33,741 nucleotides of DNA from Chrysochromulina tobinii (Eukaryota), in NCBI GenBank assembly GCA_001275005.1, contig JWZX01002434.1, forward strand, positions 1-33,741. Reading direction: 5' to 3'. The notes beneath the pieces are model-generated. The model saw nothing but the letters and a program-made list of their open reading frames with translations, searched no databases and was not told the origin of the DNA. The translations under genes and the position numbers were made by a program. Below, one piece after another: positions 9,155 through 33,549 of the stretch. How positions within the stretch are numbered: position 1 is the first letter of the stretch; each line of letters opens with the position of its first letter.

Positions 9155-9204
9155 GGAGACGAGAGGTTCAGGTGATGCCCAGCTTGGCGTTTTGACGAAT
9201 CCTC

Positions 9205-10663: not shown

Positions 10664-10700
<37 letters not shown>
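10664..10700. repeat. (GCTT)9 microsatellite
   Basis: Perfect tetranucleotide run read directly from the sequence. Confidence 0.95.
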
Positions 10701-10701
<1 letters not shown>

Positions 10702-10760
10702 ATTGTACACAGCGTTGCAGTGTGGGGAAAGTGAGGTCACGGTCTCTCACAAGTCGTGCG

Positions 10761-11777: not shown

Positions 11778-12408
11778 GAGCGCCTCGGTGCAACGGCCCC
11801 GGATCTCGCATGCTCACCGAAGATGGCGAGCGCACTCACATATGTTCCACGGGTGCAGGGATGTCACGAAAGACAGTTGCGAGCATGTGCATGCCGAGGT
11901 GGCCGCGTGGTCGCGTCCCACGTCACAAGGGTGCACATGCAACAGACAGGGCGAGAAGGAAGGCTCAAAAGTAAAATATTCCGGCCCGCGGGTCCGCAGG
12001 CGCAGCCGAGCGCCATATTGTCGACATGTCGAGCGCTGCGTCGGCGAGCTGGGGTACCCGCTGCGGAGCACGGAGGTGCAGCGTGGGGCCTTTATGGTTT
12101 ATCTCATGTTTGATGTGATAAAAGGGCAGTTTGGTCGCACCGTCGTTATTTTATAGATTAATAGCGAGTACTGAGTGGTATAATTCGGGCCGCGGCGCGC
12201 CCAGGGCGCAGGCCGCAGCCGGCGGAACGCGATAAGAACGCGACATGCGATCGCTTAAAGATTCATGCCAGGGAGGGAGCAAGATCGACTGCTGCTGCGG
12301 CCTTTGAGCATTTAGCCTCAGGGACGTGCTGTGGCGCCGTCGGCCGCAGTTACTTCGGACCTCCGGGCTCCGCTCTTCTTGATAACCCCCCGGGGGCCCC
12401 CGGATTCC

Positions 12409-13833: not shown

Positions 13834-14070
13834 CAAAAAACACACGTGAGTGTTTTGCAATGCGCGTCGAATTGGGCACTTCGAGACACGACTCGTCCAC
13901 GCGCCGAGAGGAAAACCTCTTCCGTTTTCAGTTTGGGGTGACTGCCTTTCTGTGAGTTTCAGCGGCGGCGCCGCATCGGGCGGCGAGACCGGGTTTCGCT
14001 GATGTGGGGAAGCCCTGCCGCCCCTGGTTGAAAGTCAAAGCAGCCGCCTACCGACCCGACCTCGCTCGCC

Positions 14071-15578: not shown

Positions 15579-16445
15579 GCCGCCGACGCGCCTCACGACC
15601 TACAGGCGGCACTGCTGCAGACGCAGTGCGCTCCCGGCGCCTCGACCGGCGTCGTGGACGCGCACGCATTTCGCGCGTGCTACTTTAGGGTTAGCACCAT
15701 GTGTGCGTACAGACACGAGCCCGGGCGCAGTGCGCTCGGGCTCGACATCTTGAGTGGCGCTGATGTGGCGCAGGTCAGATGATGGGCTTGATGGTAGGGG
15801 AGCGTGGTCATACCACGTGGGTCAAGCGATGGACAGCCGTCGGCATCGCGTGCTGTGATGTGCACCCGAGTATATGTGATCTGTGTACTTTTGTCGATGC
15901 GTGTGAGGGTCGGTCGGTCATGGAATGGATGGAAGATTACCTCTGCTACAGCTATGTATGTCGTTAATATGCCACTAACTGCACGTTTATCGTTTTGAGT
16001 CCAAATTGCTACCGTTCTCAATCGAGCGCTCAGCCTGTCGGAACCGCGATCGGATCGTCGGACGTCGCGGCTCGCGCGGAACAAGCCGGATCGAACTTCG
16101 AAGCCGGAACGCCAATCGCCATGGGCGGAACCGCGTCGCGGATCGACCGCGGCCCGCGTCCGTCCGGTCGGGTCGCTACCTAGTTACCCTATACCTGGTA
16201 GCGAGTTACAGCTTAGAAGCCTAACCCTAAGCGTTTACGCCCGGTCGGGCCGGTGTAAGCCCTCGCCTAACGGATCGATTCGGGCCTTCAAAATGCTGAG
16301 GGAACGCGCCGCTATGCCGCTATGCGCTAAGACGCTATTCGCCTCAGCCCTTCGCCCTGATGAGGCGAGACTCGCGCGCGCCAGCGCTGTGCCGGCGCGC
16401 GCCAGCGCCGCGCCGGCGCGCGCTTCTGCGCGTGGCGTCACCATC

Positions 16446-18196
16446 TCACCATCTCTGGTATTTCGAGAGGCCATCGGGGCACCGCCACGGCGTATGGCCC
16501 CGCTCGGGCGTCTCTTGCATGTCCACCTCGCGCTCGAGACAGCGCACGCACACCCCGCGTACGTAGTGGTGCTGCTTGCACAGCCGCACCTGATGAGGGA
16601 CGCAATCAGTGGCAATCGGACGCAATCAGCGGCCATCAGCGGCCATCAGTGGTGCTGCTTGCATAGCCGCACCGCCGTCTTGAGCGCGCGGCGCGCCCTG
16701 TGGGAGCGTTCCTCGGCGGCGCGCTCCTCCTCGGCCTCCTCCTCCTCGCTGCTGCCCTCGGGGTAGTGGTTGTCGTTCAGCCGCCATTTGTTAAGGAGAA
16801 CGCTCCTATTTTGGGAAGGGCGTGGCGACCCCTTTTGGGAAGGGTGTGGCGACATGGCGCTGTCGAGGGCCTCTCCCGTCTCGCTCGTGAGATTGACCTG
16901 ATTCGCGGCCAGCTCGTGCGGTTGGGGCCAACGGCGCCGCTTCCAGTGAGCGTCCGTGTCCGGCTCCTTGCCGGCGTTTGCGAGGACGCGCGCGGCGACG
17001 AGGGCGGCGTCGGGTGCTGGTGCTGGCGACAGTAACGATGGTACCTCACTGGGCAGCTTCGCGCCACGCGCGAGCTCTGCGTTTGCCGCCGCGAGTCGGC
17101 GGCGCGCGTGTAGCAACGCCGCGCGCACGACCGGCCGCGCCTAGATGGAGTTAGGGTTAGGGTAGGGTTGGGGTTGGGGTTAGGGTTAGGGTTAGGGTTA
17201 GGGTTGGGGTTAGGGTTAGGGGTTAGGGTGAACCGGCCGCGCCTTGAAAGAGCTGCCGCTCGCGCCTACGCCTGGGCTCTCAGCCTCTTCGTCGGACGTG
17301 GCCATGGCCGCCGCGTACTCGTACGATGAGCCGTTCGAGAGAGCGGCGAAGTCGGCCTCGTGCGCGCGGTCGAGCGAGACGCCGGGGCGGGCGCATGATC
17401 GAGCGAGTGCGCTCTCATTGTCCGCTAACTGCAGCAGCGTCGGAATGATGTTTGGATGGCACGCCGCGAAGCTCCCAGTCAAACGGCCACCCTCGTACTG
17501 GTCGCGCGCGATCCGAGCGAAGTCGAGCACCGCCGTCGCGGCGTGTCGCAGCTGCGTGGCGCGATGCGTCAGGGACGCGGCGCGTCTCCCCGCCTCCACG
17601 CCCGCAGAGGCGGCGACCGAAGAGCCGCCGACGGCGACGGCATCCTCGCTGTGGTACTCGGAGTGATGCTCACCCGCCTGGGCCCGTAGCGCGTTCGACA
17701 GCTCGAGCAGTCGCGTGCCGGCTGCGCTCGGGTCGGTAGCCTCGTCCGAGAGCCGGCTGACGACGGCGCGCAACTCCTCAGCGAGGAAGAGGTGCGCGCC
17801 CGCCTCGAGCAGGCGCGATCGCTCCGCGGAACCGTTGCCTGCCTGAACTCTGGACGCAAGACGGTTCTGTGCGGCGCGCTCCCGTGACGGCGTCACGTAT
17901 GCATGAGGCGGCCGCTGTTTGCCAGCGCTGGCTGGCCTCAATGGCGAGGTTGCGGTGGAGGAGCGCCACAGAGGCTGCCTGCCCGTGCCAGTCAAGGGCG
18001 GCGAGCCCTCGTCCAATGGCTGCTGCGATGATGAGGAGGGCAAGTGCCACGGCGGGGCGGGAGGCGCAGGCGTGACGAAGCCATCGAGCGCAGCCGCCGC
18101 TGCAGAGCCGTCCAAGCTCAGATCAAGCGACGCCGAAAGCTGCTGCATGCGCTGAACCGAGCGCTGCGACATCGAGGAGGTGCTGAGGCGCTCCAT
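16446..18196 (-). CDS. Hypothetical protein (3 exons) with a C-terminal CxxH-x6-CxxC putative zinc motif
   Basis: ORFs 17216-18196 and 16646-17128 and a final exon 16589-16446 (VRLCKQHHYVRGVCVRC...YQRW*) join in frame after removing introns 17242-17141 (or 17233-17141) and 16672-16590. Confidence 0.6.
16590..16672 (-). repeat. Intron made of a decamer satellite plus a 26-bp exon duplication
   Basis: Sense strand: GTGCGG...CACCA CTGATGGCCG CTGATGGCCG CTGATTGCGT CCGATTGCCA CTGATTGCGT CCCTCATCAG. Direct repeat 16565-16590 / 16648-16673 with 1 mismatch. Confidence 0.85.
17151..17228. repeat. Interstitial telomeric array (about 13 TTAGGG/TTGGGG units) inside an intron
   Basis: Read directly. Flanked by the 13-bp direct repeat ACCGGCCGCGCCT at 17130-17142 and 17232-17244. 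Confidence 0.95.
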
Positions 18197-18647
18197 TCCT
18201 CCGACCGTTACAAAGGTTGGAAGGACACGTATTTGTTCTCAAAGTTTGGGTCGGGACCCCTGCACATACATGTAAAGCGAAATGCGATATCAACGCGTGT
18301 GGCGCCTCACTTGTTCACGTGAACTGCGAGAATAGAGACTTCAGGGTGTCGAGGAGGAAGCGCGCTTGCGCGAGCCTCTTCGCGCTCCGTAGCGCTCCCG
18401 TGCTCAACGTGCGTCGGTGCGATCGATGCACGCGCACAGCGCACCGCCTTCGTACACGGAATCGATCGAGTGCCCAGGTGCTTTCCTCCATGGTGCCCCG
18501 CGGGCACTCCTGCATCTCCGGAGTCTCCCTTTGTCTCTCTCATGACCGTGGTTTTTCGCATGCGGGCGTCGCCGCCGACCAGTCCGCCTCCCTCCTCTCC
18601 ACCCCGTGCGCTTCACTGCCACGCTCTTCTTCTCTCTTGTTCACAGG

Positions 18648-19126
18648 ATGATCGCGATGCTCATCAACTGTGTAGCAGAGAAGACCAGCGCCCACAGCGG
18701 TGAAGTCTACTCGGTCGCCTTTTCCCCGGATGGGACCAAGATTGTCTCCGGATCGCGCGACGGGACGATCAAAGTCTGGGATGCAGGTGCGTCGGAGCCC
18801 TCGAATCGCCCCTCCTTGGCCAAAACTGACGCTTGCTGGCTCGTATTGCAGGCGCGCTGGGGCTGCTGAGCGAGAAGACGAACGCCCACAGCGGCTCGAT
18901 CAACTCGGTGGCGTTTTCCCCAGATGGCACGAAGATCGTGTCCGCATGCAATGGTGGGACGATCAAACGCTGGGATATGGTCAAGTGGTCTCGCAAAGAT
19001 CATTTGTTGTTCAACGTCACCACCCAGCAATTTGTCTTGCAGCTGCTGTGGCTGAACAAATACAGCATGAAGTTTCCTGATGATGTGCTAGATCTACTGA
19101 TTGAAGCTTGCTTGCAAAGCAGGTGA
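18648..19126 (+). CDS. Short protein with two HET-E-like WD40 repeats and a helical C-terminal tail
   Basis: [31 protein letters not shown], intron 18787-18851 (GTGCGT...TTGCAG), then [31 protein letters not shown]. 137 aa in total. An upstream acceptor at 18646 suggests a further 5' exon. Confidence 0.7.
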
Positions 19127-19688
19127 GGCGGGGTGACGGCAATCGGGTGTCGCCTCTTATTTTAGCAGCCTCTTCTGAGAGCTGCCTCCTATAAACGGAG
19201 TTGGGATTGCTGTTAGCTGATCACGTGAAGGTCCTACGATCACGTGGGGGTCACGCTGTGCTTGGGCGAGGCTTTGGATTCTTGGATTGCTGTCCTTGTC
19301 AAGTGCGCCGGTGCATGCGATTCCATGCGCACGGCGCCGTTGCTGTGTTTCAGAATCAGAATTTAGAATTAGAATCTGTCATGGAATCGTGTACGTGAAC
19401 CCGCCAATGCGCCATGCCCATGGCGCGTTGGCCGGCCATGCCAGGACCCAGGTGCTCCAGCGAAGGGATTCTTTACGCACCTCCGGTGTAACACCAGTGT
19501 TCCCGAATCGAATGAGCGCGCGTCTTCCATGTCGCGTCGTTTCGCTTCCTGGGCACACTGGACCCTCTCCACGTGGAATGTCACGTGTGTGGATCCCCAT
19601 CATGGCCATATTACATGTCGCATCGCAGACGTGTGACGTGATGTGACAGACGGGGGTGTTTGCTCCTCTCGGCGGCTCTTACAGTGTC

Positions 19689-20160
19689 TCAGCCGCGCTT
19701 AAGCCGCGCTCCGTGCACGGCTTCGGCTCCCTCAACGGACAAGAGCGATTCATCGAAGCCTTGCTGCGCCTCGAGTAGGCGCGGCAAGCACCACTCGTAC
19801 AGCGCGCGCTTCTCGTCGCGCTCGAGCTCGCGCACCTGGCCAGGCTCGAGGCCGCCAAGCCCTACAGGCCCCACCTCCAAGCGGCGCAGGTGATGCAGAT
19901 GCAGCCCCGCCTGCTTGCACAGGCGTCGGACCTGATGATTCCGCCCCTGTGAAAGCACCACTTCGACGCGTGTGACCCAGCCATCCTGAGCGCCGTCCTG
20001 AGCGAGAGGATCCTCCAAAAGGCGAGGCGCCTCCACCACATTCGTCGCCCGTCCGTCCTCAGCGTCCCCGTCCTCGGCGTCCAGCTGGGCCAGCTCCGAA
20101 AGGCAATTCGCCTCTCCCAACGCCAACGCCGCCTCCAACTGCTGCTGCTCCTGCTCCTCT

Positions 20161-20222
<62 letters not shown>

Positions 20223-20876
20223 AGCTCGCTGCCTCTCGGCGCGCCGGCTCGCGTGCCAGAGCTCACGAGCTGAGGGAAGTCGCTTCGACGCGCGCCTGAT
20301 CTCCCCGTGCTGCTCTCGCTTGCGCGCCCTGTCCGCCGTGCTATCAAAGAATCGCCACTCGGAGGCGGGCCGCTCGTCCACGTACGAACCGCGGCACTCG
20401 ACGGCGACCGCCGGCCTCGAGTAGTACGTTCGGCCGCTGAGTCGATGGGTGAGTGGCGCCGCGAGCCGCTGGATGCTCGATGATTCAGGCTCGTGCCGAC
20501 CTGCGACGATCAGCTCATAGCGCTTTGTCACCGGCGAGCCGCCGTACGCCTCGAGCACCTCAGGCAGATTGATCAATGCGCGGTTGAGGAGGCCGTGAGC
20601 CGTCACCAAAATGAGCCCCGACGTCTCAAAATCAAGCCTGCCCACGTGGCCAGCCATCGGCACGACACCCGCCTCTAGCATGATGTCTGTCAGAGTCCGA
20701 CGTTTCTGAGTGTCGTGGCCTGCAGCACTCAGCACATTCCGTGGCTTGTAGATGGCGTACGTTGGCTCGGCGAGACATTCACCCGAAGGAACGTCGGTCA
20801 GAGCAGCGGCCGGCGGACGCAGATCATCGAAGAACCATCGTTGAGGCTGTTGCGTGAGAGAAAGCACGGCCATCAT
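19689..20876 (-). CDS. RsuA/RluE-family pseudouridine synthase with a polyQ-containing insertion
   Basis: YKPRNVLS, HVGRLDFETSGLILVT (catalytic Asp), KRY, and LSQGRNHQVRRLC...LRRLEVGP..LEPGQVREL. First ATG at 20876. Confidence 0.9.
20163..20222 (-). repeat. (CAG)20 coding polyglutamine tract
   Basis: Perfect trinucleotide run, in frame as Q20. Confidence 0.95.
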
Positions 20877-21047
20877 TTCCGGCCGCCTGGTTGCCGCACG
20901 CCTTCCACGCCTGCCTTGACCAAGATCCAAGTCGGCGAGTTTCTTCACGGGAACCGAGAAAAGCAAGCGGCACACAAAAAATTGCAGCTTACTCACTCAC
21001 TAGACTCACTTTCACTCACTCACTCAAAAGACCCCTCTAGCTAGGTG

Positions 21048-21740
21048 CTACTGAGATAGTCCGTCTGAGTGGTCACTGCTTCTCTCTACAGCCGGAAACC
21101 ACTTGCGCGCACGAAAGGTGGCACCGAGTTGCGCGGCCAGGATGGCGGTGGCCTCAATATCGACATCGGGGGCTTCGACGGCGGTGCATTCCACGGCTAG
21201 CCCAGCGTCCACACATGCACTCACGAAGCCTCGCACCTCCGAGAGTCCGAGCGACAGGCTGAAGACGGGCGAGTACCTCAGCTTCTCGGGTTTCATGAGC
21301 TGCACGTACTGATCGGCGTTGGCTGTAGCGAGAGCCACGGTTGCCGCGCTCACGCCCGCGGCCCGAAGGCGAGCCGCCGTGTCGGGTGCCTCGCTCGTGG
21401 GCACCAACCCGTTCGTGTTGACGCGCAGCACTAGGTCGTGAGGGTGCTCACTGCTGATGAGAGTCGCCGCCGCTTCGAGCTCGCGTAGCCGCAGCAGAGG
21501 CTCGCCGACGCCAGCAAAGCACACCTCGCTTGGTATGTCATTGCTTGCAAAAGCAGCACGAACGGCCTCAGCCACATCAGCAGCGCTCGGCTCGTTTCCA
21601 GCCGGCAATGGCACGAAGCCGCTCGCTGACGACATCGCAAAGCCAGGGCCGCGCGTCTGTGGCAGCGGCACAGCGTTGCATCGGTTCGTCAGCGCCACGT
21701 AAAGGGTCGAGCCGAGGCGGTACGTCAAGCCGGGAAGCAT
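21048..21740 (-). CDS. TatD-associated radical SAM family-like protein with a degenerate CxxxCxxC motif
   Basis: LTYRLGSTLYVALTNRC, EVCFAGVGEPLLR, LRVNTNG and LGATFRARKW follow the TatD-associated radical SAM pattern. The second and third cluster Cys are absent. Confidence 0.78.
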   Translation of the reverse strand: MLPGLTYRLGSTLYVALTNRCNAVPLPQTRGPGFAMSSASGFVPLPAGNEPSAADVAEAVRAAFASNDIPSEVCFAGVGEPLLRLRELEAAATLISSEHPHDLVLRVNTNGLVPTSEAPDTAARLRAAGVSAATVALATANADQYVQLMKPEKLRYSPVFSLSLGLSEVRGFVSACVDAGLAVECTAVEAPDVDIEATAILAAQLGATFRARKWFPAVERSSDHSDGLSQ

Positions 21741-22134
21741 ATTGAACGCCCTCTGTGAACAGCGCGTTCACGGCTGTGAACGTCCGTGTGCGAGAGCTGG
21801 CTTCTCATTCCTCGAATTTAGAGGGCTTCTGTTGCGGGTCCGGACGGCCCGTTCTGGGTTCTGGCTCACCATCTGTCGTTCCCACGATCTCGTCAAAAGA
21901 TGCCGCGTAATAAATCTTGGTGGAAGTGCGCGCGGTGGATCTCTGTCTCTTTGTGAGTTTGCGAGCCATGGTCTTTCCTCTTGCACTGTCCTGCCCTCAT
22001 TCCGCGGCTGTCTGTAATTTGAGTCTCTCTGTGTGGAACGGCATCGTGGCATGGGCTCTACGGATACCCTCTACTGTAAGGGCACAGACACATGCACGGG
22101 CGGTGGGGGCACCACGTATGCATGCGCCTCGTCC

Positions 22135-22722
22135 TCACAGGCTGGCCAGATAGTCCTCAACGGCCTTCATCCGATACTTTTTGGCCAGCACGAGCGGAGT
22201 GTCGCCGCCGATGGTCTGCTTGTCAACCTTCGCGCCGGCAGCCGTCAGCAGCTTTACGCACTCGAGCCTGCCGTTGCGCGTCGCCATGTGCAAAGGGGTC
22301 TCCTTCCACTGGGTAACAGCATCCACCTCGGATCCGGCCTTGAGCAGCGTCTCGACTGCCGCGTCATTGCCCACTTGAGCAGCACGGTGCAGCACCGTCT
22401 TGCCGGCCGTATCCTTGGCGGAAGCTAGATCCCAGCCCCCGTCGACCATGAGCTTGAGCGATGCCTGGTCGCCGGTGCTCACGGCGTAAAAGGCTGCACT
22501 CTGCTGCTCTGACAGCGGAGGGTTGGCCTGCTTCGCAGCGGCGGCCCTCGCCTTTGGATTGTCGAATTCGCTGAGCGGCGGCAGGTTGAAGGCCTGCGCC
22601 GCCTGCAGCGGTGCAACGGCGGCAGCGGCAGCGCTCGAGAGCAACGCGCGGCGGCCGAGCGTCGTCTGTGCTCCGCCGGTGAGCGCCGATGCAGCCAGCG
22701 CGAACAGGGCAGCGCAAGCCAT
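22135..22722 (-). CDS. Ankyrin repeat protein, probably targeted to the thylakoid lumen
   Basis: Ankyrin motifs GKTVLHRAA, ETPLHMA and GDTPLVLA. Presequence: signal peptide, twin-Arg GRRALL, hydrophobic stretch, AQA|F cleavage site. Confidence 0.85.
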   Translation of the reverse strand: MACAALFALAASALTGGAQTTLGRRALLSSAAAAAVAPLQAAQAFNLPPLSEFDNPKARAAAAKQANPPLSEQQSAAFYAVSTGDQASLKLMVDGGWDLASAKDTAGKTVLHRAAQVGNDAAVETLLKAGSEVDAVTQWKETPLHMATRNGRLECVKLLTAAGAKVDKQTIGGDTPLVLAKKYRMKAVEDYLASL

Positions 22723-22946
22723 CGCCGCGAATCTTCACTTAGAATCTCGTAATTGCGTCGGCGCGGTGCGGGGGGCTGACGCCACGGTGTCGATACGCGT
22801 CGAAATTTGATGCGGACTAGGTCGAGGGTATTAGAACCGTCGAGGTGATCCACGATTTGTCGTTGACGAAGTAGTGCACGAGAGGCCCGGAGGATGTTCT
22901 CCTACCCCTGGTGCTTGGACGACGGTACCTGTACCTGTACCACACA

Positions 22947-24290
22947 ATGCGCAATGTTTTAACGACCGCTCTTCTGCTCGCCACATTGGCGCACTCCTCC
23001 GTCAAGAGGGCCGACGCCGACGACAACGCTGAGGGGTGGTACGCACCAGCATACACAGAGCCAATGGACTCGATTCTGCTGCTTGCACAGGACCCCGACG
23101 TGCAGTTCGCGGATCCGTCCAAATTCACCTATCCTGACACGATCACGGCGGTGCAGGCCGAGCTTGCCAAAGCTCTGCATACGCACGTGCACGTGCGCGT
23201 GCTCGTGGATCCCAAGAGCACCGCTCATCAGCAGCGGAGCTTCGAGCTGGCGCTGATGAAAGCCGGCCTGAGGTTGCCGGTACCCAACATTAGCTTCGTG
23301 AACGTGAGCCATTGTGACATCTGGACACGGGACACCGGCCCGATCTGGCTGCGGCGGGCCGGTGGGCGCGAACCGAGTCGCCTCATGATTAAGCCGCACT
23401 TTACATTGTGGGGCTACCTTGTTGGTGATCACGTGCGTGGCCCGTGGGCTACGTGCGACGTACCGAACACGGTCCCCGACGGCCTCAGTACGGCGCTTGG
23501 CCTGCCCGTGGAGAGCGCAACGGACTTCGTGACCGAGGGTGGTGACAAGTCCTTCAATGGCCTAGGGACTGTGATCATGTCGCGCGAAGTCGAGCGCCAG
23601 CGGCACCCTGGCCTGACAGACGCTCAGATCGAGGCTCTTGCGCAGAAGTACCTCCGCGTGAGCCACGTGGTTTGGACTCAGGATGGGGTGGCGGACGATG
23701 AGCAGTCGTACCTCGGGCCGCTCGAAGGCGAGGGAGGCCGTCGCGTGTACACCACCATCGGCACCGGCGGGCACGTCGACGAGTGCGCGCGGTTTGTTGG
23801 CCCGTACACCGTGGTGGTGCCTCAGCTGACGCCGCAGCAGGCGCAGCACTCGGCGCTCGCAGCGACGACCGCACGCCGACTGGACGCGAATGCGGCGCTG
23901 CTGAGCAACCAGACAGATCAGAGCGGCCGCCGTCTCGTCGTCGAACGGATGCCCTACCCTGAGGAGCTCTACCTGACTATCAATGCATCCGAGGGCACGT
24001 ACCAGCTGCTTGCCCAGCTACCTGAGTTAGGACTCACCCCAGGCTCGGGGAGTGTCGAAGTCATCGCAGCGGCCTCCTACACCAACTATGTGATCGCCAA
24101 CGGCCTCATTGTGCTGCCGCAGTACTACAAGCCCGGCCGGCCGCAACGATTCGCCGACGCTGATGCGCAAGCCGTGGCTACGATGCGCCGGTTGTTTCCC
24201 GGCTACGAGGTGAAAGGCGTCAATCCTGAGCCCGTGAATTTTGGCGGAGGTGGGCTGAATTGCATCTCGAATAACATGCCGGCAGCATGA
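22947..24290 (+). CDS. Agmatine deiminase / Porphyromonas-type peptidylarginine deiminase family, with signal peptide
   Basis: DIWTRDTGP, EGG, GHVDE, SYTNY and GGGGLNCIS (catalytic Cys). N-terminus MRNVLTTALLLATLAHS. Intronless. Confidence 0.88.
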   Translation: MRNVLTTALLLATLAHSSVKRADADDNAEGWYAPAYTEPMDSILLLAQDPDVQFADPSKFTYPDTITAVQAELAKALHTHVHVRVLVDPKSTAHQQRSFELALMKAGLRLPVPNISFVNVSHCDIWTRDTGPIWLRRAGGREPSRLMIKPHFTLWGYLVGDHVRGPWATCDVPNTVPDGLSTALGLPVESATDFVTEGGDKSFNGLGTVIMSREVERQRHPGLTDAQIEALAQKYLRVSHVVWTQDGVADDEQSYLGPLEGEGGRRVYTTIGTGGHVDECARFVGPYTVVVPQLTPQQAQHSALAATTARRLDANAALLSNQTDQSGRRLVVERMPYPEELYLTINASEGTYQLLAQLPELGLTPGSGSVEVIAAASYTNYVIANGLIVLPQYYKPGRPQRFADADAQAVATMRRLFPGYEVKGVNPEPVNFGGGGLNCISNNMPAA

Positions 24291-24468
24291 ACTGTTGGCC
24301 TTCGCCTTGTGCGTACTACGTATCTCGGATCGTTTCCGCGTGGTCCGGGGCGTCATCGGTCCGGGGTGAAACCGAACCGCGACGTAGTGATTTGATTTTT
24401 GTTTTTCAAAGGTGTAACGGGTGTCACATATTTCAATCGATCAGATTGAGAAGAGCTGTTCACGTTCG

Positions 24469-24570
24469 CAGCGGCCCGTTGCAAGCATCCTCAGGCAGCC
24501 GGCATGCAGCGCGATCCACGCGTGCACTCTCCGCCGGCCCACCGTCATGGGCAGCCTGGCCGTTGCGCTG
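24469..24570 (-). promoter_or_regulatory. Eukaryotic SECIS element (type II-like) in the 3' UTR of the SelW-like gene
   Basis: Sense strand: CAGGC-TGCCC-ATGAC-GGTGGGCCGGC-GGAGA-GTGCACGCG-TGGAT-CGCGCTGCAT-GCCGGCTGCC-TGAG-GAT-GCTTG. It has the AUGAC/UGAG core (24548-24544 / 24493-24490), a 10-bp helix II, an apical mini-helix and helix I CAGGC/GCUUG. Confidence 0.8.
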
Positions 24571-24615
24571 TGGCACAGCTCATCAATCGTGAGCTAGGAC
24601 ATGAGATCTGGATGA

Positions 24616-25202
24616 TTAGACACAGTCGCCTGCGCCATTGTCTGCGTCGAGCATGGCCTCAATCTCATCTGCCACCTTTGACCTCTGTTCGTCAGTACGG
24701 CAGGGTTCCGCCTGAAATTGGCTGTTGTACTTCGAGTACACGAGCTTGCCCACGGCCGATTCGTATTTTTTCGGGTATTTCACCGGCGGCGGCGGCCATG
24801 GCGTGGTTCCAGTTTGAGCCGCCGTCACCTCGAAAGAGCCCACATTTCCATCCGACGATGCAGTGATAGCCACCTCGTCGCCAAAGCGGTCCATGATGAC
24901 CTTCTTCAGCAGGGGCAAATCGTCGAACTTGTCAAATCACCCTCCGCAGTACCTACATGCATGGGGTTGATAGGTATGCAGGTCGATAAGTTGATGTGAG
25001 TTTGATAGGTATGCAGGGGCGGTCTTGGCAGCTTGGCTGCCGGTCAGGGAAAGGCAGCTCACTCGACGTGAACCATCAACTTGGGCTCGGCCATGAGCAG
25101 TGCTGCGCGCACGGCGTGGTGAGGTGCATGCTGCGTCAGAAACGAGTGCTTCAGCGCCGATGCCGCGCCGACAAAGACGAGAGCCAGAAGGGGACGCGAC
25201 AT
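24616..25202 (-). CDS. SELENOW: Selenoprotein W-like (Rdx family) with in-frame UGA-Sec, bipartite plastid presequence
   Basis: Exons 25202-25063 and 24952-24616 (110-nt GTGAG...TAG intron) give ...MVHVEYCGGU(TGA 24939-24937)FDKF...LKKVIMDRF...GSFEVT...GKLVYSK, i.e. SelW CxxU, FEV and GKLxxSK motifs. 158 aa. SECIS downstream. Confidence 0.9.
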
Positions 25203-25317
25203 GATTTCTTCAGGGTGGAGTCGGTCTGCAGAGTCGGACGCTCGCCGCCTCACCATTGGCTGTGAACCGGAGGATGTACGCACCGTGAATTCTAAACGCT
25301 AAGGAAAGGCGTGTATC

Positions 25318-25534
25318 GTCGCCCGCCTCGTTAGGTACGGTCCCCGGTCGGAGTACCGACGGACGACAAATCACAAAAGACAAGTTTTTTTCTATCTCAA
25401 CCGCCCCCTGGGCCTGCTCGCTGCTGCCAAGGGGGAGTCGGGAGATAACCAAAAGGGGGAGTTCGCTAGCCGCCCGATGGTCGCCCGCCTCGTTAGGTAC
25501 GGTCCGGTGAGACAAAAGATAACTTTTCTATCTC
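25318..25534. repeat. Dispersed direct repeat: 26-bp identical copies plus a degenerate AT-rich partner
   Basis: GTCGCCCGCCTCGTTAGGTACGGTCC at 25318-25343 and 25480-25505, each followed by ACAAAAGA-x-AA-x-TTTT..CTATCTC (25373-25398; 25512-25534). Confidence 0.85.
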
Positions 25535-25924
25535 GACATCTCTAAGATGTATGCATGCGGATACAGCTTACATCACAGGTATCCTCTACCAAGAACCATG
25601 CGGATGCGCATGCCCCGCACCATCCTCCTCATTAAGGCGACAGGGCCGCGCACGATTGTCTCGTCGCGCCGCAGCCTATACGGCGCTTTTCTCGCTCCAG
25701 CCATGAGCGCTTTTCTCGCTCGACGCTCCCGCCCACCCGGGAATCGACCACTGCAGTACTGGCAGCGCGGATCCCAACCTCCGTGAGCTCTAGCCCTAGT
25801 CGCTAGTGGATTGTCCCCCATGATTGCCCCTCATGTTCCAATGCCCCCCCATCGATGCGAGGCCACCCACGTCCTAAGACAATTGCACGCCAACATTCAG
25901 TGATTGATGTTGTTTCTTGCAAGC

Positions 25925-28877
25925 TTACTCGGTCGTGCTCGTCACGACGGTGGGCCCCTCCATTGAGAGGGCGCTGTTTGCGCACGGCGTGACCGCATAC
26001 TGGCTTCGGATGCCGAGCAGGCTGATGGCATTCGCAAGCACGATGATGATGCCGAGCACGTCCGAGCCTACGGAGGCCGTAATCAGGTACCCCTCAGCTT
26101 TCTCGAACGCCGTGAAGATGAGCACCAACGGCAGCAGCTTGAGCAGCAGCGCAATCGCGACGGAGTTACGCAGCGTGCGCGCCGTGCGCCGCGCGCCCAT
26201 GATGCCGTCTGCCAGCCGACGCAGGTCGTTGGTCATCAGCACGACACCAGCGGCCGCCGAGGCCAAGGCGGTGCCATGGACACCCATCGCGATGCCCACG
26301 TCAGCGGCAGCGAGGGCTGGGCCATCGTTGACGCCGTCTCCCACCATGCCGACGATCGCCTCGCGCCGAAACTCTTTGATCATGGCGAGTTTCTCGGCCG
26401 GCTTCATCCCCGCGACCGCCGTCGCGATGCCCGCCTGCGCGCGCACCGCCTGCGCCGTCTCTTCACAGTCACCCGTGAGAATCGTCGTCTTCACACCCAG
26501 ACCGGCGAGTGCCGCCATCGCAGGCGCTGTCTCGCCGCGGATCGCGTCAGAGAGCTGGCACGCGGCCGCGATCTCGCCGTCTAGCAGCACCCAGAGCACG
26601 CTGCTTCCCGAGCGTCGCCAGCCCGCGATGAGAGACGAGCCCAGGGTCAGCTCCGGGGGGCCGTCGACGGGCGGCGAGGGCGGCGGTGAGGGCATTGGCG
26701 CCGTAGCGGGCGTAACCGTCGGTTCGATGGCAGCCTCCGGCGCGAGCTGGGGCATGGGCGCGGGGGTGGGCGTCGGCGCGAGGTAGGGCGTCGTCGTAGG
26801 CGCGAGCTCGGCAGTAGGGCATGGCCCGTCATGGCAACACTCTCTGGGAGGGTTGCAGCAGTCACGATGGCAGCAGCGGCCACCGCAGCGACGACGGCGG
26901 AGGCCCCGCCGGTTGCAGCATTCCTTCGGGCCACACCCGCCGCCGCGGCACTTGCCACAGTCCTTCGGGCACGGCGGCAGCGGATCCGCCGCCGCCTCGT
27001 ACGCCCCACCTTTGAATGCAGCCTGCGCACACCGCGCGGCCTCCGTGGCGGCCTCGAGGGCAGCCTGCGCTTGCTGCTGCTTCTTCTGCAGACTCGTGAG
27101 CATGCGCGCGGGCAGCTGGTGCTGCTGCGCGTGCGCGACGTTCGCGTTCGCCGCTCGGAGGGCCTCGGCGGCGGCCTCCATCTCGGGCGTCGAGACGACC
27201 TCCCCTCGCGCGATCGCCGCCTCCGCCAGAACGCGTCGGGCGAGGCGCTCGTTGCCTACGTGCACCTTGACGCCCTCCACGAGCGCTTCGATGCCCTCAC
27301 CTTCGAGGAGCATGAACTCGGGCGCGGGCGGCGGGTCCACGCCGAGCGAGTCCGCAAACTCAAGGAACGCGGCGGCGATCGGGTGGGACGAATTCTTCTC
27401 AACGGCCGCGGCGTAGCGCATCACGCTCTCGATTTCGGCACGCCGATTGGCATGGTTCAGCGCGAGCTGGCGTAGGCGGAAGCGCCCCTCGGTGAGTGTG
27501 CCGGTCTTGTCCACGGCCAGGTGCGTCATGCGCGCGAGCAGGTCGAGCTGCTTCGCGTTCTTCACGAGGATGCCCCACTTGGCGAGCGCGGAGATGCCGC
27601 ACGCATTCGTGACGGGCATCGCCACAATGAAGGAGCACGGGCACGAGATGACCACGAGCGCCAGGGCGCGATGCAGCCACCACACGCACCCATCCGCGCC
27701 TGCGCCCGTGTGCATCCAACGCTCCGTCCAAGTCTCGGGTTCCTCGCCGTGGCCTCCCTCGCCGTGGCCGCTCGCGCTGACGTTAGCGCTGACGCTCGCC
27801 ACGACGCTCGCCCCATTCGGAGCGTCGTCCTGAGCGTCGTCTGTCCACGTGCACCAGCCGAGTGGGATGGTGGCGAGGAGTATGGCGGTGAGTAGGATGA
27901 GCGTGGTGTACACGCGCGCGAAGCGCTCCAGAAACACCTCGCGCCCTCCCGAGCGCTGCGCTTGTGCGACGAGCATGCCGAGCTGTGCGGCCGTGCTCTC
28001 GGCCGGTAGCCGCACGACGCGGACGGTTAGGACGCCAGTCTGGTTGGTGGTGCCTGCGAAGACTTGAGCGCCCGCCGCCTTGGACACCGGTATCGACTCG
28101 CCAGTGAGCATCGACTCGTCGACCGACGAGGCGCCCCCGACGACGTCACCGTCGGCGGGTACGGCGCCCCCCGGTTTGACCAGCAGCAGCTCCCCCACCA
28201 CTACCTCTGAGAGCGGTTTGTCGGCCGAGCCGTCGGCCGGGTAGGCGCGCTCGGGCAGCATGCCGCCCAGGCTGCCCGCGAGGTTGGCCGTGTGGTGCAC
28301 GCACCATGCCTGGAGCCACTCGGAGCCCAGGAAGAAGAAGGTAATCGCGGCGGCCTCTTCCAGGTCGAGGAGCACAAGCGCGCCGATGCAGGCGAGCGCC
28401 ATCGACGCGAACATGTTGAGCGTGCACTGCAAGAAGAGGCCGTTGAGTGCACGCACCACGAGCGTCGGCAACCCGAGCAGCACGCACGCCAGCGAAAAGT
28501 ACGAGTACGGCCACTCCCAGAACTCGGTGTCCTTGGGGCGCGCCCAGACGCCTTGGCCGATCAGGAAGAGCACGAGGCAGCACACCGCAAGGATCGTCTC
28601 CTTCGAGCACATTTCGCCGCGCTTCAGGCCCGCCCCTGGGCCGCCCTTTTGCACGACCGACGCGCCGAGGAGCGCCCAGTTGAGTGGGCGGAGCATTTGA
28701 GCGGCGCTCACCTTGCTCGGGTCGTGGTAAACCGCGACGCCGGCGCAACATCAGGTTGAACTTGAGGTCGATGACGCCCTCCATGGGGCCGAGCTTCTTC
28801 TGGATCAGCGTCACCTCCGACTGGCAGCACATGCCCGTGACTACGAGCTCGGTCACCTTGATCGTGGGCTCCCCCAT
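25925..28877 (-). CDS. P1B-type heavy-metal ATPase (Zn/Cd, plant HMA2/4-like) with a 1-nt frameshift near 28741
   Basis: N-terminal GMCCQSEV metal-binding domain, TGES, SCPC, DKTGT, SSHP and GDGVND. The N-terminal exon (ATG 28877) joins ORF 25925-28711 only if one base is removed at 28740-28741. Confidence 0.92.
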
Positions 28878-29227
28878 GTCTCCAACGGGATTGTGTTTGG
28901 TGTCGAGTGACGAATTCTCCCGGGCGTGAACAACTTCTTGCCTGGCCGGGTCACCGGTCTCAACGTCAAGCCGAGCCGAGCTTTCTGGATAGGTGGCAAT
29001 AGGGATACACCAGGTTTACACCAGGGGGTCATCGGGACGAAAGTCACGCCGTGCGCACTTTTTTGACCTAGTAGGGGACCTTGGCTAAGGTGACCTTCTC
29101 AGTTCTCACTACACTCAGGTAATTACCTCATAGGCTTTGAACACTGTGTTGTGACGCACACAGTGGACAGTGACACGTCGTTAGCGTTACCCATGCCGTT
29201 CCACGCCGCTCTCGCGGGCCCCATCTT

Positions 29228-29335
29228 TTGAGATTGAGAGTCAATTGAGCAATTGCAATTGAGATTATGTTGAGATTGACAGTCAATTCAAATTGAGAGT
29301 CAATTCAAAGCGTTGAGAGTCCATTGAGAGTGACT
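29228..29335. repeat. AT-rich array of the palindromic motif ATTGA-SAG-TCAAT
   Basis: Copies at 29233-29246, 29275-29288 and 29291-29305, degenerate copies at 29313 and 29323, plus half sites. Confidence 0.75.
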
Positions 29336-29465
29336 CAGGCAACCACAACGCACCACCAGCTAGCTCAACTGTCGCCGCATCGCCATGCGCTGTAGCACGT
29401 TGTAGGCGTCGATGGCTGGCGGCTGAGACGGTGGCTGAGACGGCGGCGGTTGCGTCAATCGAAAG

Positions 29466-29823
29466 CTAGCATTGCTGCTGCGCCTCGTCAATCGAAATGT
29501 ACCCCTTGGACGCCAGCAACGCGAACGCCAAAGCCCGCCTTTGCCTCGCTGCCAGCTGCAGGCTCTGTCGCTCCCTCGTCAGCCTGGTCTGGGTGGCCTC
29601 CTTCGGCGCCGCCGGCTGCCGCGGGCTGTCCGCGGGCTGCCGAGGGTCGCCACGCATGCGCCTCATCAACTCCTGCTGCTCTACGAGCTTCTGCATCGCG
29701 GGCTTTGGCAGCGGCGCCTTTGGCACCGGTGGCCTGGGCGCAAGTTTGGGCGGCGGCTTAGGCTGTGGTTTGGGCTGCGGTGGTGGTGGCGGCGGCCGCT
29801 GCTGCATTGGCTCCTCCGCCTCT

Positions 29824-29898
<75 letters not shown>

Positions 29899-30471
29899 TC
29901 CTCCTCCTCCTCCTCCTCCTCCTGATGATGATGCTGCTACTGCTACTGCTGATGATGATGATGCACCTGCTCCGGCTGCACCGGCTGCACCAGCTGCACC
30001 GGCTGCTGCGGCTGCTCCGGCTGGCTGCGTCGGCTCGACCACCACCGGTACCAGCGCCGGCTTCAGGCACATCATTATTAGTGCTGAGAGCCAGCCTTGA
30101 CTCGCTGCTACAGGTAGCTGCGCCATCGTCGCCTGCTGCCGAAGGAGCTTGGTTGACTGTATCCGCTCGAGCTTCGCTTCCAGCACCTGGATGTCTACTG
30201 CTGCCAGCAAATCTACGGCCGCCTCGGCTTTCGCTTCCTGAAGTTGCGCCGCACGGTCGTGCTGCATCTCCACGTAGCACTCATTCGTACCAGTGACTAC
30301 GTGCGACCTTAGTTCAGCAATTAGGTCGCGGGTTGACGCGTGCCGCAACTTTGCCGCAGCGGCCGATGAGGTCGCGACTGAGAGGTCGCGACCGGCGGGA
30401 CTGAGAGGACGTCGACCAGCGATGCTGGCGGACATGAATTTACACTCGCGTTTTGGACTGGAGAACTTCAT
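29466..30471 (-). CDS. Hypothetical coiled-coil / polyE-polyQ / Pro-rich protein (gene model uncertain)
   Basis: Coiled-coil-like N-terminal ORF from ATG 30471 or 30435, and a C-terminal ORF 29807-29466. A frame change near 30025 and a possible 45-nt intron 29966-29922 are needed to join them. Confidence 0.4.
29826..29965. repeat. Compound microsatellite (CAG)23 (GAG)9 plus CAT/CAG/TAG runs (minus-strand reading)
   Basis: Read directly from the sequence. Confidence 0.92.
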
Positions 30472-30691
30472 GCCGGTACGCTCAACATGGCGCATTTGCT
30501 ACACATGCACAGATGCACAATCGTTGTCTGTACAAGAGCTCCTCCGCGGCCCTGCCGTCCTGTCTTGTGTGTGCCTCACCAGCGCTGGGAGCCCATGCCA
30601 AAGCGCCAGTTCGGCAGCCGGCACAAAGGCACGCCCATCTGGCCCTCGTGTGGCTGAGGCGGTGGCTTGATCGGCGGATCGGGCACGTCTC

Positions 30692-33549
30692 TCACGCGGA
30701 GGCGTGCACGGCCTGCGTCGCATGCACATAGTAGAGCAGCACGCACAGCGGCTGGCCTACAAAGCAGAAGGTGACCCAAAAGAGGAAGTTGCCCGCCTGC
30801 TCGAAGGCGGTGCCTTGCGTGTACCTCCTGAGAAGCTTGGAGAGCGACGCAATCAGAGGTCATCAGAGGCCATCAGAGGCCATCAGCGGCCATCGACGAA
30901 CCTGAGAAGCTTGGAGAGCGGGAGCATGGGCACCTGCGACATCATGCCTACGAAGGCGAGCGGCATCCGGTACGAGTGCAGCGGGAAAGCGACGACGATC
31001 TCGTGCAGAACGGCCGAGAGGGTGAAGCACAGCAGGCCCGTGAGCACCTTTGAAGAGGTGACGTGTCGCTGGATGGGGAAGAAGGCGTGGCGCACGACCC
31101 ACATGTGGACGGGCATGTTCCACGTGCGCCAGTAGCCCTCGAAGTCGATCGCGTTCCACCACGCCTTGTAGAAGACGCGATCGCCGAAGCGCGTGAGCTC
31201 GGCCAGGAGATTGAGCCACACGTGGAAGAAGGCGTAGAAGCCGACCAGCCAGACGTATGTCACGGGTACCGCGAGGCGCAGCAGCCGGTCGAGGATCCTC
31301 GCCACATCGCCCGCCATGATCGGCTCGATGGACGTCTCGAGGAGAGGCAGCATGTACTGTACCACGAAGGCGGGCAGTAACGTCCATAGCATGATCGTCC
31401 GGAGGACGAGTGAGATCAGGTACGTCTTGCGCACGCGCGGTGTGCGAGGGTAGTCGAGCTGGTAGCACAGCGTAGGCGCGACTAGGAACCAGAGCAGGTT
31501 GCCGAAGGTCACGTTGTTCGGGTAGTGCAGGCTCGCGCCGTCGGTGTCGCTCACCGTCGAGCGGTACTTGGCAAGTCGTGCGTCGAGGGAACCTTCGGCC
31601 TCCCCTCGCGACTCCTTTCCCGCCTCGCGCAGGTCGTGGTGCACGTGCGCCCACGAGACGAGCTTCAGGAAGATCGTCACCGAGCAGATGAGCAGCAGCA
31701 CGCCGCCACCCGCGCCGCCGTAGTGGCGCTCCGTGCCCACGAGTGCCGCAGGCAGGGCGAGGGACGCGCCCACATTGATGGCATGCAGGGGATCGACGAA
31801 GCGGCGCGAGAAGCGACTGAAGGGCGTGCGCTGAACCGCGGCACGCTCCAGCCCAAACGCAAACAGGATCGGCACGGCGAGCACGGCCGCGGTGCGCAGC
31901 AGCGCGTGAAGCTTCACCTGAAGTGCGGCCCCGTCGAGAAAAGCCTCGGCGTCGCGGAGCAGATCGGCGAAAGAGGGAAGGGTGACGCGCAGACCGTTGA
32001 GGAGAAGGTTCTCGAGGAGCAGACGGAAGTTGGTCACCACAAAGAGGAGGAAGACCAGGTTGACGAACCCCGACAGGTTCGCGTGCTCGCCGCTCGGGTC
32101 GCTGCCAAATCCGCCTCCGGAGAGCAGCGACGGCTTCGACGTGCGGTGCATCGGGCGCGACGCCGGGAAGAGATTTGGGTCGAGAAACGCGCGCGGCTTG
32201 CGCGTGCCGCCAGGTGTGGTCGTCTCGCCGGGCGTGTCGGGCGCCGGCAGGGGCGGGGGCACCCCCGGCGCCTCGCCGAGCCCCACTTCGATGGGCGGAG
32301 GGCGGCACCCTTGAGAGGGCGGAGGGCGCGGCGGAGGCGCACTCAAGGGTACCGCGCTCGCCGCGGGCGACGTGGCCGACACGGGCTGCGCTGTGACGGC
32401 GGCGACGGGGGCACTCGTGGTGGCGCTGGGCAGGGCGCCCCCCTCAGCCGACGAGAGCGGCACGCCCCAGCGCACCGGCGGCGAGTACATGAGAGTTGCG
32501 AGGTTCTGATGAGACGGCACAGGCGAGAGCTGCACCGCGTCGAGCGTGCGCACCGAGCTACCCGTCGCCTCCGCAAGCGCCTCGAGCCATTTGTTCGCCT
32601 CGTGCTCGTCGGCGCAACTCGCGCGGAGCAGCGCACCCGAGCCTGGCCCGCGCTCCGAGTGCAGCGTGCCCTTGAGCCAGACCGAGAAGATGTGAAACTG
32701 CGCGCCCTTGGACTGCTTGGTGCCTTCGTCGATGACGACGCAATTCGAGAGAGGCAGCCGCTCATCCGGTACGAGCGCCGTCTCGGTCGGGTAGTAATGC
32801 AGCTGGAGTGCTCCCTGTGTATCGCGCGTGAGGACGAAGAAGCGCCGGTCCCAGCGCGACGCGCTCGAGCCCAGCCATGACCCGGCGTCAGGCTTGTACC
32901 GGTTCAGCCAGCCACGCGTCTGCTTGATCTGCTTCGTCATGCGCGCGAGCGTCGCCTCGAGCTCGACGATGCGCGCGCGCAGCACGCTCTCCGTGGCCAG
33001 GGTGCCCTCCGAGCTGCTTGCGCCGCCACCGACCGGCGCCGGCTCCACCGCGGCCGTGGCAGCGGTGCCCGCCGCCGCAGCCATGTGCCCCGACTGAAGC
33101 TCGTGCACGATGGAGATGTATTTGGCCTTAGCGTCGGCGGGTGCTCGGCCGCGCCGACGGGACCAGCTCGACCATTTGGTGTGGTCGATGACCAAGTACG
33201 CGGGCGGCCCCTCGGCCGGAGCGTCGCCGCACGTGCCCTGCTTGTAGTAGGAGTATAGGCGCAGGCGCTCCTTCATGGGCAGCTGGTCACGGATCTTGTT
33301 GACGTGTTCGCTCGCTCGCTCAAAGTCGGCGTCATACGGCGTGGCCGCTAAGCTCTTGTCAAGCCTGCTGCTCCGACGGCGCGCCCGAGCATCTCGCTTC
33401 CACAGGAAAAAGTAGGCTGTTGCGACCGCAAGCAGCGTGGCGAGGGCCGCAGTAGGAGGCGCGGATGGCCAGTCGGCGAGCGGCGCGCCTTCAGCCTTGG
33501 GCTTCGAGGGGGCACTGCGGCGGTTGAACGGGTTTGGAATGTTTGGCAT
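30692..33549 (-). CDS. DGAT1: Diacylglycerol acyltransferase type 1 fused to N-terminal TM anchor, ACBP and PH domains
   Basis: DGAT1 motifs HRTSKPSLLS, NFRLLLENLL, KLVSWAH, APTLCYQ, FGDRVFYKAWWN, WNMPVH and SAVLHE. Intron 30901-30828 adds the final exon GNFLFWVTFCFVGQPLCVLLYY, with stop at 30692. First ATG at 33549. Confidence 0.95.
30828..30901 (-). repeat. Intron made of a decamer satellite plus a 20-bp exon duplication
   Basis: GTTCGT CGATGGCCG CTGATGGCCT CTGATGGCCT CTGATGACCT CTGATTGCGT CGCTCTCCAAGCTTCTCAG. Exact direct repeat 30827-30846 / 30901-30920. Confidence 0.88.

What the first reader, a model, noticed from the sequence alone, without database searches (positions are those of the whole stretch)
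16565..30920. Candidate intron-gain system: tandem-repeat filler plus exon duplication that splices out seamlessly (3 cases)
Seen: three introns share one design. Intron 16672-16590 (83 nt) has a 26-bp duplication offset by 83. Intron 17242-17141 (102 nt) has a 13-bp duplication offset by 102. Intron 30901-30828 (74 nt) has a 20-bp duplication offset by 74. In each, intron length equals the repeat offset, so splicing removes the filler plus exactly one copy and restores the uninterrupted coding sequence (for DGAT1 this is confirmed by the conserved C-terminus). One splice site comes from the duplicated exon sequence and the other from the filler end. The fillers (CTGATKRCSN decamers in two unrelated genes, CCCTAA in the third) are all oriented so that a CTRAY branch-like motif is repeated on the sense strand. 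The other introns in the window lack such duplications. Known: introner transposons usually have short TSDs and terminal inverted repeats, and repeat-rich introns are reported in haptophytes. Inference: staggered-break repair with satellite or telomerase-like filler creates new introns, with variable-length TSDs and no TIRs.
Basis: partly seen in the sequence, partly recalled or inferred. Interest (0 to 1): 0.82.

Follow-up and report, generated by a model that had tools for sequence, protein, structure and literature searches.

The report
New introns built from intron halves
In a haptophyte alga, new introns appear as an 11-48-base duplication of the gene wrapped around a piece likely copied from another intron; one is spliced out exactly in RNA and similar ones are present in some alleles and absent in others, which offers a testable answer to where new introns come from.

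Summary
All three units are real: duplications of 26 (one mismatch), 13 and 20 nt at offsets equal to the intron lengths. The DGAT1 intron is spliced exactly in RNA contigs of two studies; the other two lack a shown RNA junction. Eight RNA-confirmed control introns have 0-3 nt overlaps. In 121 related loci, 106 of 206 decamer arrays have a flanking duplication of 12 nt or more, against 27 of 500 controls. Seven sites differ cleanly between alleles. The filler is better read as half of another intron than as satellite or telomerase product: a non-repetitive intron 3' end fills the same role, true (CCCTAA)n occurred only in the window, fillers resemble neighbours within 2 kb, inner junctions show microhomology, and 93 of 115 family acceptors precede GT/GC. 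Best mechanism (inferred): microhomology-guided template switching during repair. There are no terminal inverted repeats and no fixed duplication length, so this is not a standard introner. The scan noted the same footprint earlier on another piece of this genome (e1-2577349), read there as a mobile family.

The parts
16648..16673 (-). Unit 1, upstream copy of the 26-nt exon duplication; supplies the GT donor at 16672
16591..16647 (-). Unit 1 filler, 57 nt: decamer array ending in the family acceptor CCCTCATCAG (last G shared with the duplication); 6-nt microhomology to known arrays at its start
16565..16590 (-). Unit 1, downstream (exonic) copy of the duplication
16590..16672 (-). Unit 1 intron, 83 nt, GT..AG; splicing inferred from reading frame; same sequence in L098, L113, L119
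   Evidence: no RNA joint displayed
17232..17244 (-). Unit 2, upstream copy of the 13-nt duplication; supplies the GC donor at 17242
17143..17231 (-). Unit 2 filler, 89 nt: degenerate (CCCTAA)n array plus a short non-repeat tail
17130..17142 (-). Unit 2, downstream copy of the duplication; includes the acceptor AG
17141..17242 (-). Unit 2 intron, 102 nt, GC..AG; splicing inferred from reading frame, not tested by RNA
16446..18196 (-). Host gene of units 1 and 2: 521-codon open frame after removing both; no Pfam hit in exons 1 and 2
30901..30920 (-). Unit 3, upstream (exonic) copy of the 20-nt duplication, ending in AG|G
30847..30900 (-). Unit 3 filler, 54 nt: intron start plus decamer array
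30827..30846 (-). Unit 3, downstream copy of the duplication; supplies the acceptor AG
30828..30901 (-). Unit 3 intron, 74 nt, GT..AG, spliced exactly in RNA contigs of X13 and X18; also present in L065 (98% identical allele) and L079
30692..33549 (-). Host gene of unit 3: ACBP-PH-MBOAT (DGAT1) fusion, 927 aa after splicing

Best explanation
These are recently gained introns in which a stretch of exon is duplicated around a filler that was likely copied from one half of another intron, probably by microhomology-guided template switching during DNA break repair or replication. Inferred steps: DNA synthesis leaves the exon at a few bases of microhomology, copies 25-150 nt of an existing family intron (often one within about 2 kb), then returns to the exon 11-48 nt upstream of where it left. 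The junction at the splice site usually falls on AG|GT, so the copied half supplies one splice site and a branch-like CTRAY/CTCAC motif, and the duplicated exon supplies the other. Splicing then removes the filler plus one copy. Each new intron would be a donor for the next, so no transposon is needed. Shown: the architecture, exact splicing of one unit, presence/absence between alleles, microhomology, similarity to neighbours, and GT/GC after family acceptors. Inferred: the copying itself, a DNA rather than RNA template, the polymerase (Pol theta-like by analogy only), and gain rather than loss at each polymorphic site.
For: (1) Duplication of 12 nt or more at 106 of 206 non-redundant decamer arrays vs 27 of 500 control positions. 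(2) Exact GT..AG removal fits 56 of 115 isolated units on the filler's sense strand, vs 20 antisense and a null mean of 11, maximum 21 in 2000. (3) Seven clean filled/empty sites among 46 indel rows from 150 allele alignments; three remove exactly as GT..AG introns from open frames: L009/L015 vs L052, L063 vs L010/L019, L025 vs L033. (4) Of 67 exact units, 40 take the acceptor from the filler end, 19 the donor from the filler start, 8 both from the duplication; 34 share a 3' end and 14 a 5' end with another unit, but only 2 share both. (5) Microhomology at the inner junction, which splicing does not constrain, averages 3.1 nt vs null 1.0, maximum 1.7 in 300; 23 of 41 decamer units were scorable. 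(6) Arrays within 2 kb are more alike than arrays elsewhere after dropping pairs with shared flanks (150-500 bp: 0.193, p=0.002; 500-2000 bp: 0.143, p=0.005; other loci 0.101; no excess beyond 2 kb). The new L009 filler best matches, outside its own allele, the intron about 1.2 kb upstream in the same locus (score 55 vs 22 next), with 5 shared bases at the entry junction. (7) One polymorphic 69-nt insertion (L063 vs L010) is an inverted copy resembling an intron 300 nt away and stays in frame, which fits a double-stranded template. (8) TMEJ-made tandem duplications are microhomology-associated and sometimes carry in-cis templated inserts (PMC5730883, passages).
Against: No local donor was found for 5 of 7 fillers queried: two had no good match in the 857 kb held, and three, including both window decamer fillers, matched best in other loci. 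A near-identical donor-side filler occurs in unlinked loci L005, L051 and L062, as a mobile family would. The proximity effect is modest and tail-driven (Mann-Whitney p=0.13 at 500-2000 bp), and later gene conversion could also produce it. 73 of 132 family acceptors have no upstream copy of 8 nt or more. GT/GC follows 93 of 115 decamer acceptors and 24 of 27 second-family acceptors vs 14% after background CAG; plain repair plus selection explains this precision less easily than a splice-site-guided process. The inverted insertion is a single case, and its gene direction is inferred. Loci were selected by a decamer pattern, so frequencies are not genome-wide. Only one unit has RNA proof.
Confidence: 0.5

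Rival explanations
1. RNA-guided version: an RNA end at an AG is joined to a GT splice site (aberrant or reverse splicing), and a reverse transcriptase or repair polymerase copies this chimera with a template switch in the repeats, writing duplication plus half-intron into the gene.
For: Both main designs share one AG|GT junction; GT/GC follows 93 of 115 and 24 of 27 family acceptors, with GTACG and GTGCG the commonest, and GTGCG is also the commonest donor of the window's control introns; arrays within 500 bp are co-oriented in 96 of 97 pairs; in-cis RNA would also give local donors. Related models exist: RT template switching (cited in PMC3443670, passage) and reverse splicing at R-loops (PMC4540971, passages).
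Against: One inverted insertion (L063) and 8 of 67 units with neither junction at a splice site. Fillers extend well past the expected branch point (from general knowledge of lariat structure). Published reverse-splicing models insert whole introns with no duplication.
Confidence: 0.2
2. Short non-autonomous mobile family, introner-like or SINE-like, inserted by a non-LTR retrotransposon with long variable target-site duplications and truncation. This is the reading of the earlier scan note e1-2577349.
For: Variable duplications and one constant end fit target-primed reverse transcription (recalled). A near-identical filler lies in unlinked loci. 1,448 DNA contigs of X12 were laid on the 1.1-kb DGAT1 stretch, piling on the 45-nt array. 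About 5% of classified introners derive from non-LTR elements (PMC12130899, passage), and haptophytes carry introners (PMC9860276 supplement rows).
Against: The constant end is the 3' end in some units and the 5' end in others; only 2 of 67 share both ends or reach 80% end-to-end score. At least four unrelated fillers use the design. No conserved sequence extends beyond the intron ends. Similarity decays with distance. No RT motif was found in the 857 kb held (a weak test).
Confidence: 0.17
3. One reading: staggered breaks filled de novo with satellite or telomerase-made repeats, kept when the repeat happens to supply a branch point.
For: Window unit 2 is a CCCTAA array, the haptophyte telomere motif (PMC11347835, passage). 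All fillers carry CTRAY-like or CTCAC motifs on the sense strand. Staggered-break gains are reported in Daphnia (PMC4202315, passages).
Against: Non-repetitive fillers, conserved non-repeat acceptor ends, a matched neighbour donor, a degenerate telomere array not abutting the duplication, and 1 true telomere array among 9 CCCTAA clusters.
Confidence: 0.07
4. The duplications are secondary: old repeat-rich introns whose edges were later duplicated by slippage, with no new intron position created.
For: Many units are nested or tandem at the edge of an existing array (202 of 317 units were not isolated; several copy-number rows); 3 of the 7 clean sites abut existing introns. All held alleles of window units 1 and 3 carry the intron.
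Against: Three empty alleles have a single uninterrupted copy in an open frame with no array at the site; window units have no adjacent array.
Confidence: 0.06

Closest known systems
Intron gain by staggered double-strand-break repair in Daphnia pulex (PMC4202315, passages read; review PMC3443670, passages read)
   Same: Polymorphic new introns with a direct repeat of the adjacent exon at the far end; later nested events.
   Different: Daphnia intron-exon repeats are 4-12 bp and the source of most inserts is unknown; here repeats run 11-48 nt (median 23; the lower bound is my seed size) and inserts belong to recurrent intron families with identifiable neighbours.
Introners / introner-like elements that recruit one splice site from a target-site duplication: Polarella glacialis and Symbiodinium classes (10.1101/2020.10.14.339549, parts 1-2 of 4 read); Chrysochromulina MAG family with 4-bp TSD and no TIR (10.1101/2022.06.06.494994, passages and section 20 read)
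   Same: One splice site carried, one recruited from the duplication; several frames of use; donor-like dinucleotide after the acceptor; haptophyte precedent without TIRs.
   Different: Those duplications have a fixed length per class (3-8 nt) and introns are similar at both ends; here the length varies continuously and only one end is shared. That survey required similarity at both ends and removed low-complexity families, so it would likely have skipped these.
Tandem genomic duplication of an AGGT-containing exon segment (Rogers model; as described in PMC3443670, passages read)
   Same: Exon duplication supplies splice sites and is removed exactly; 8 of 67 units take both sites from the duplication.
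   Different: The classic model has no foreign filler; here a filler always lies between the copies and usually supplies one site.
Polymerase theta-mediated tandem duplications with in-cis templated inserts (PMC5730883, passages read)
   Same: Microhomology-associated duplication plus locally templated insert.
   Different: Shown in mouse cells at engineered nicks, with no link to intron creation; the enzyme was not tested here.

Membership tests
Spliceosomal intron | GT/GC..AG ends and exact removal from RNA | tested here: met
   Unit 3 spliced in X13 and X18; units 1 and 2 have the ends and restore the frame but show no RNA junction
Recently gained intron | Presence/absence between close alleles with a single copy at the empty site | tested here: met
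   Met for related units in loci (3 exact, 7 clean sites); not seen for window units 1 and 3, whose 5 held alleles are all filled; no allele of unit 2 was held
Introner (Gozashti 2022 definition) | Sequence similarity to other introns reaching both splice boundaries | tested here: not met
   2 of 67 exact units share both ends; 34 share the 3' end, 14 the 5' end
TIR DNA-transposon introner (MITE type) | Terminal inverted repeats | tested here: not met
   Mean longest inverted match 3.8 nt vs null 3.5, maximum 3.9
TIR DNA-transposon introner (MITE type) | Short fixed-length target-site duplication | tested here: not met
   Continuous 11-48 nt among units found with an 11-nt seed; shorter overlaps exist at other arrays and were not classified
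Non-LTR retrotransposon / SINE-derived introner | One constant end with truncation at the other, and variable duplication | tested here: inconclusive
   Variable duplication met; the constant end is 3' in 40 and 5' in 19 of 67 units
Non-LTR retrotransposon / SINE-derived introner | Autonomous RT partner or longer parent element sharing the end | not testable with these tools
   No whole genome held; no RT motif or conserved extension in 857 kb
Tandem genomic duplication (Rogers) | Both splice sites from the duplication and no foreign insert | tested here: not met
   8 of 67 take both sites from the duplication; all scored units have a filler of 25 nt or more by selection
Templated-insertion repair (TMEJ-like) | Junction microhomology | tested here: met
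   3.1 vs 1.0 nt, 23 of 41 scorable
Templated-insertion repair (TMEJ-like) | Insert copied from nearby sequence | tested here: inconclusive
   Excess similarity under 2 kb and 2 of 7 queried fillers with a local best match
Templated-insertion repair (TMEJ-like) | Dependence on Pol theta | not testable with these tools
   Needs genetics in the alga
Telomerase-added filler | Perfect TTAGGG added directly to the broken 3' end | tested here: not met
   Unit 2 array is degenerate and 8 other bases separate it from the duplication on that strand

The most novel reading that the evidence does not exclude
This haptophyte runs an element-free, self-propagating intron-gain process that is aimed at splice sites: halves of existing introns are copied next to cryptic donors or acceptors in exons, guided by the spliceosome or by AG|GT microhomology, so most events are exact from birth and each new intron seeds its neighbours. 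It may explain the repeat-rich introns of haptophytes generally.
Probability: 0.3. Interest if true: 0.9.

Novelty: new variant of a known kind. Interest (0 to 1): 0.72.

Why it matters
For most newly gained introns the source sequence is unknown (PMC4202315, PMC3443670), and the main solved route is transposons. Here the source, the insertion footprint and empty alleles are visible together in an organism that grows in mixed culture and has RNA data. If the mechanism holds, it is a large-scale route to new introns that introner surveys filter out, and it can be tested directly by population sequencing and mutation accumulation.

Tried and rejected
No whole genome is held, so no genome-wide scan was possible. 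The decamer pattern found 0 matches in viral contigs. RNA laid on 1-17149 did not display junctions for units 1 or 2; coverage there was low and 10 of 25 joints were hidden, so this is no evidence against splicing. Summed depth on the decamer core was not used as a copy number. A first duplication score (113 of 206 vs 41 of 400) was too lenient to mismatches and was replaced. The first distance test included pairs sharing flanks; 61 such pairs were dropped. The RT motif scan was empty, a weak test on 857 kb. Species naming failed: the best named XPB hit of the expected lineage is Prymnesium parvum at 71%, and no Chrysochromulina tobinii protein was among the 120 listed. Assembly artefact was rejected: units 1 and 3 recur in separate assemblies, including 98-99% identical alleles. 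Passages of the C. tobin and two Phaeocystis genome papers say nothing on such introns. The report of repeat-rich Emiliania introns is recalled and was not found in the library. Hypoxylaceae stwintrons were rejected as a model: they have TIRs and no flanking duplication (PMC8469720, passages). Long LINE duplications in Chlamydomonas (PMC9977147, passages) concern full elements.
Full report
Observation. The three units are in the sequence as described. Each is a direct repeat (26 nt with one mismatch, 13 nt, 20 nt) whose offset equals the proposed intron length (83, 102, 74 nt). Removal restores a 927-aa ACBP-PH-MBOAT (DGAT1) protein whose C-terminus aligns through the junction with homologues, and a 521-codon frame of unknown function across units 1 and 2.

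RNA. Of four runs laid on 30400-31500, RNA contigs of X13 and X18 (two studies) skip exactly 74 nt with GT..AG ends on the minus strand and 20 ambiguous bases. DNA run X12 has no such joint. X17 has short contigs through the intron and no joint. X18 is a slightly different allele, so its joint alone could be an empty allele, but X13 matches the window without differences and the 98%-identical DNA allele L065 carries the intron. On 1-17149, eight other introns show joints, with exact overlaps of 0-3 nt. No joint was displayed for unit 1 (15 of 25 joints shown, low coverage), and unit 2 was not spanned.

Related loci. A 21-nt decamer pattern gave 0 matches in viral contigs and 121 loci in metagenome contigs: 857 kb with the window, 474 kb after masking redundancy. 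All frequencies below come from this pattern-selected sample. Flanking duplications of 12 nt or more occur at 106 of 206 arrays against 27 of 500 control positions. A separate scan found 317 duplication-plus-filler units, 115 of them isolated (a few counted on both strands). Exact GT..AG removal fits 56 of the 115 on the filler's sense strand, 20 antisense, and 11 on average under a null (maximum 21 in 2000). Allowing GC donors gives 67 exact units: 40 with the acceptor at the filler end and the donor at the start of the duplication (like units 1 and 2), 19 with the donor at the filler start and the acceptor at the end of the duplication (like unit 3), and 8 with both sites inside the duplication. 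Their duplications span 11-48 nt, median 23. Against universality, 73 of 132 family acceptors have no upstream copy of 8 nt or more.

Polymorphism. Aligning 150 allele pairs gave 46 indel rows of 40 nt or more; most are copy-number changes of nested units. Seven distinct sites have filler plus one copy in one allele and a single copy in another. Three remove exactly as GT..AG introns from open frames: 96 nt with a 19-nt duplication (L009, with a variant in L015, vs L052/L066); 100 nt with 41 nt (L063/L073 vs L010/L019; the site reads as a leucine-rich repeat, seen directly in the sequence); and 74 nt with 24 nt and an unrelated 9-mer filler (L025 vs L033). Three abut existing introns (L015, L039, L023). 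One is a 69-nt in-frame insertion whose filler is inverted relative to a similar intron 300 nt away (L063 vs L010). None of these was tested by RNA or polarised with an outgroup. Gain is inferred because the intron contains a copy of its own exon.

What the filler is. It is not only repeat. In 31 of 115 isolated units it is a non-repetitive intron 3' end with a CTCAC branch-like motif, a pyrimidine tract and AG. Units share one end with other units (3' end 34 of 67, 5' end 14 of 67) but rarely both (2 of 67), and terminal inverted repeats are at chance level. True (CCCTAA)n was 1 of 9 non-redundant CCCTAA clusters, the window's own. After family acceptors, GT or GC follows in 93 of 115 independent decamer cases and 24 of 27 second-family cases, against 14% after background CAG. 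At the inner junction, which splicing does not constrain, exon and array share 3.1 nt on average against 1.0 expected; 18 of 41 units had no library match and were dropped. Arrays within 2 kb are more alike than arrays in other loci (p=0.002 and 0.005 by permutation, after dropping 61 pairs with shared flanks), with no excess further out. The L009 filler matches the intron about 1.2 kb upstream far better than anything else held. However, 5 of 7 queried fillers had no local donor, and one donor-side filler recurs in unlinked loci.

Mechanism. I commit at 0.5 to microhomology-guided template switching on DNA: synthesis leaves the exon, copies half of a family intron, and rejoins upstream, giving duplication plus templated insert. 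AG|GT microhomology and selection make the product spliceable, and each product can serve as a new donor. The nearest biochemical analogue is TMEJ tandem duplication with in-cis inserts (PMC5730883, passages). Rivals are an RNA or spliceosome-guided version (0.2), which explains the GT/GC precision best but not the inverted insertion; a truncated mobile family with long duplications (0.17); de novo satellite or telomerase filler (0.07); and secondary duplication at old introns (0.06), which is real for many nested units but not for the three exonic empty sites.

Comparison and novelty. The system works like staggered-break intron gain in Daphnia (4-12 bp repeats, source mostly unknown; PMC4202315, passages) and like introners that recruit a splice site from their duplication (fixed 3-8 nt in Polarella, preprint parts 1-2 of 4; 4 bp without TIRs in a Chrysochromulina MAG, passages). 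It fails introner membership on both-end similarity, TIRs and fixed duplication length. The introner survey required similarity at both ends and removed low-complexity families. Its supplement lists haptophyte families without duplication lengths (rows 1-32 of 155 seen, file cut when stored); unseen rows, its sequence files and closed bioRxiv supplements could hold related families. Ten full-text searches listed no paper whose title, abstract start or read passages describe long variable duplications with half-intron fillers in haptophytes; the library lacks most subscription papers. The scan itself noted the same footprint on another piece of this genome and read it as a mobile family (e1-2577349). 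I saw that note after my own analyses; it is not independent support, and it led me to the Polarella preprint.

Verdict. A real feature and a new variant of a known kind (intron gain by duplication with insertion), with an unusually visible source and standing polymorphism. Interest 0.72.

Noticed in passing
window 28500-28880 (-): The 5' part of a predicted heavy-metal P-type ATPase-like gene changes frame near 28745 with no obvious intron: assembly error, pseudogene or tiny intron.
   Followed up: no
window 30692-33549 (-): DGAT1 is fused to N-terminal ACBP and PH domains and has the new intron as its only interruption.
   Followed up: partly
window 447-3530 (+): Intronless XPB helicase with an N-terminal TFIIS/Med26-like domain and an insertion relative to typical XPB length.
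   Followed up: partly
window 3800-5900: Very deep RNA cover in X17 and X18, with opposite-strand joints between 5073 and 5802; unexplained.
   Followed up: no
window 20139-20222 and 29825-30028: Long CAG/CTG-type triplet runs; the second differs in length between the window and L065.
   Followed up: no
L052:8000-13300; L017; L056: Hot loci with 16-23 arrays each, including head-to-tail copies of [exon end plus intron start] that would form repeated mini-exons or recursive AG|GT sites.
   Followed up: partly
L023:9102-9228 vs L022: Three tandem 42-nt units, each an exon tail plus donor plus short acceptor, absent in the other allele; the 30-nt mini-introns may be too short to splice.
   Followed up: no
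window 10600-10700 and L008:7953-8069: A short sequence with (GCTT)n ends looks shared; in L008 it is a 116-nt insertion absent from L044 and L011, possibly a small mobile element.
   Followed up: no
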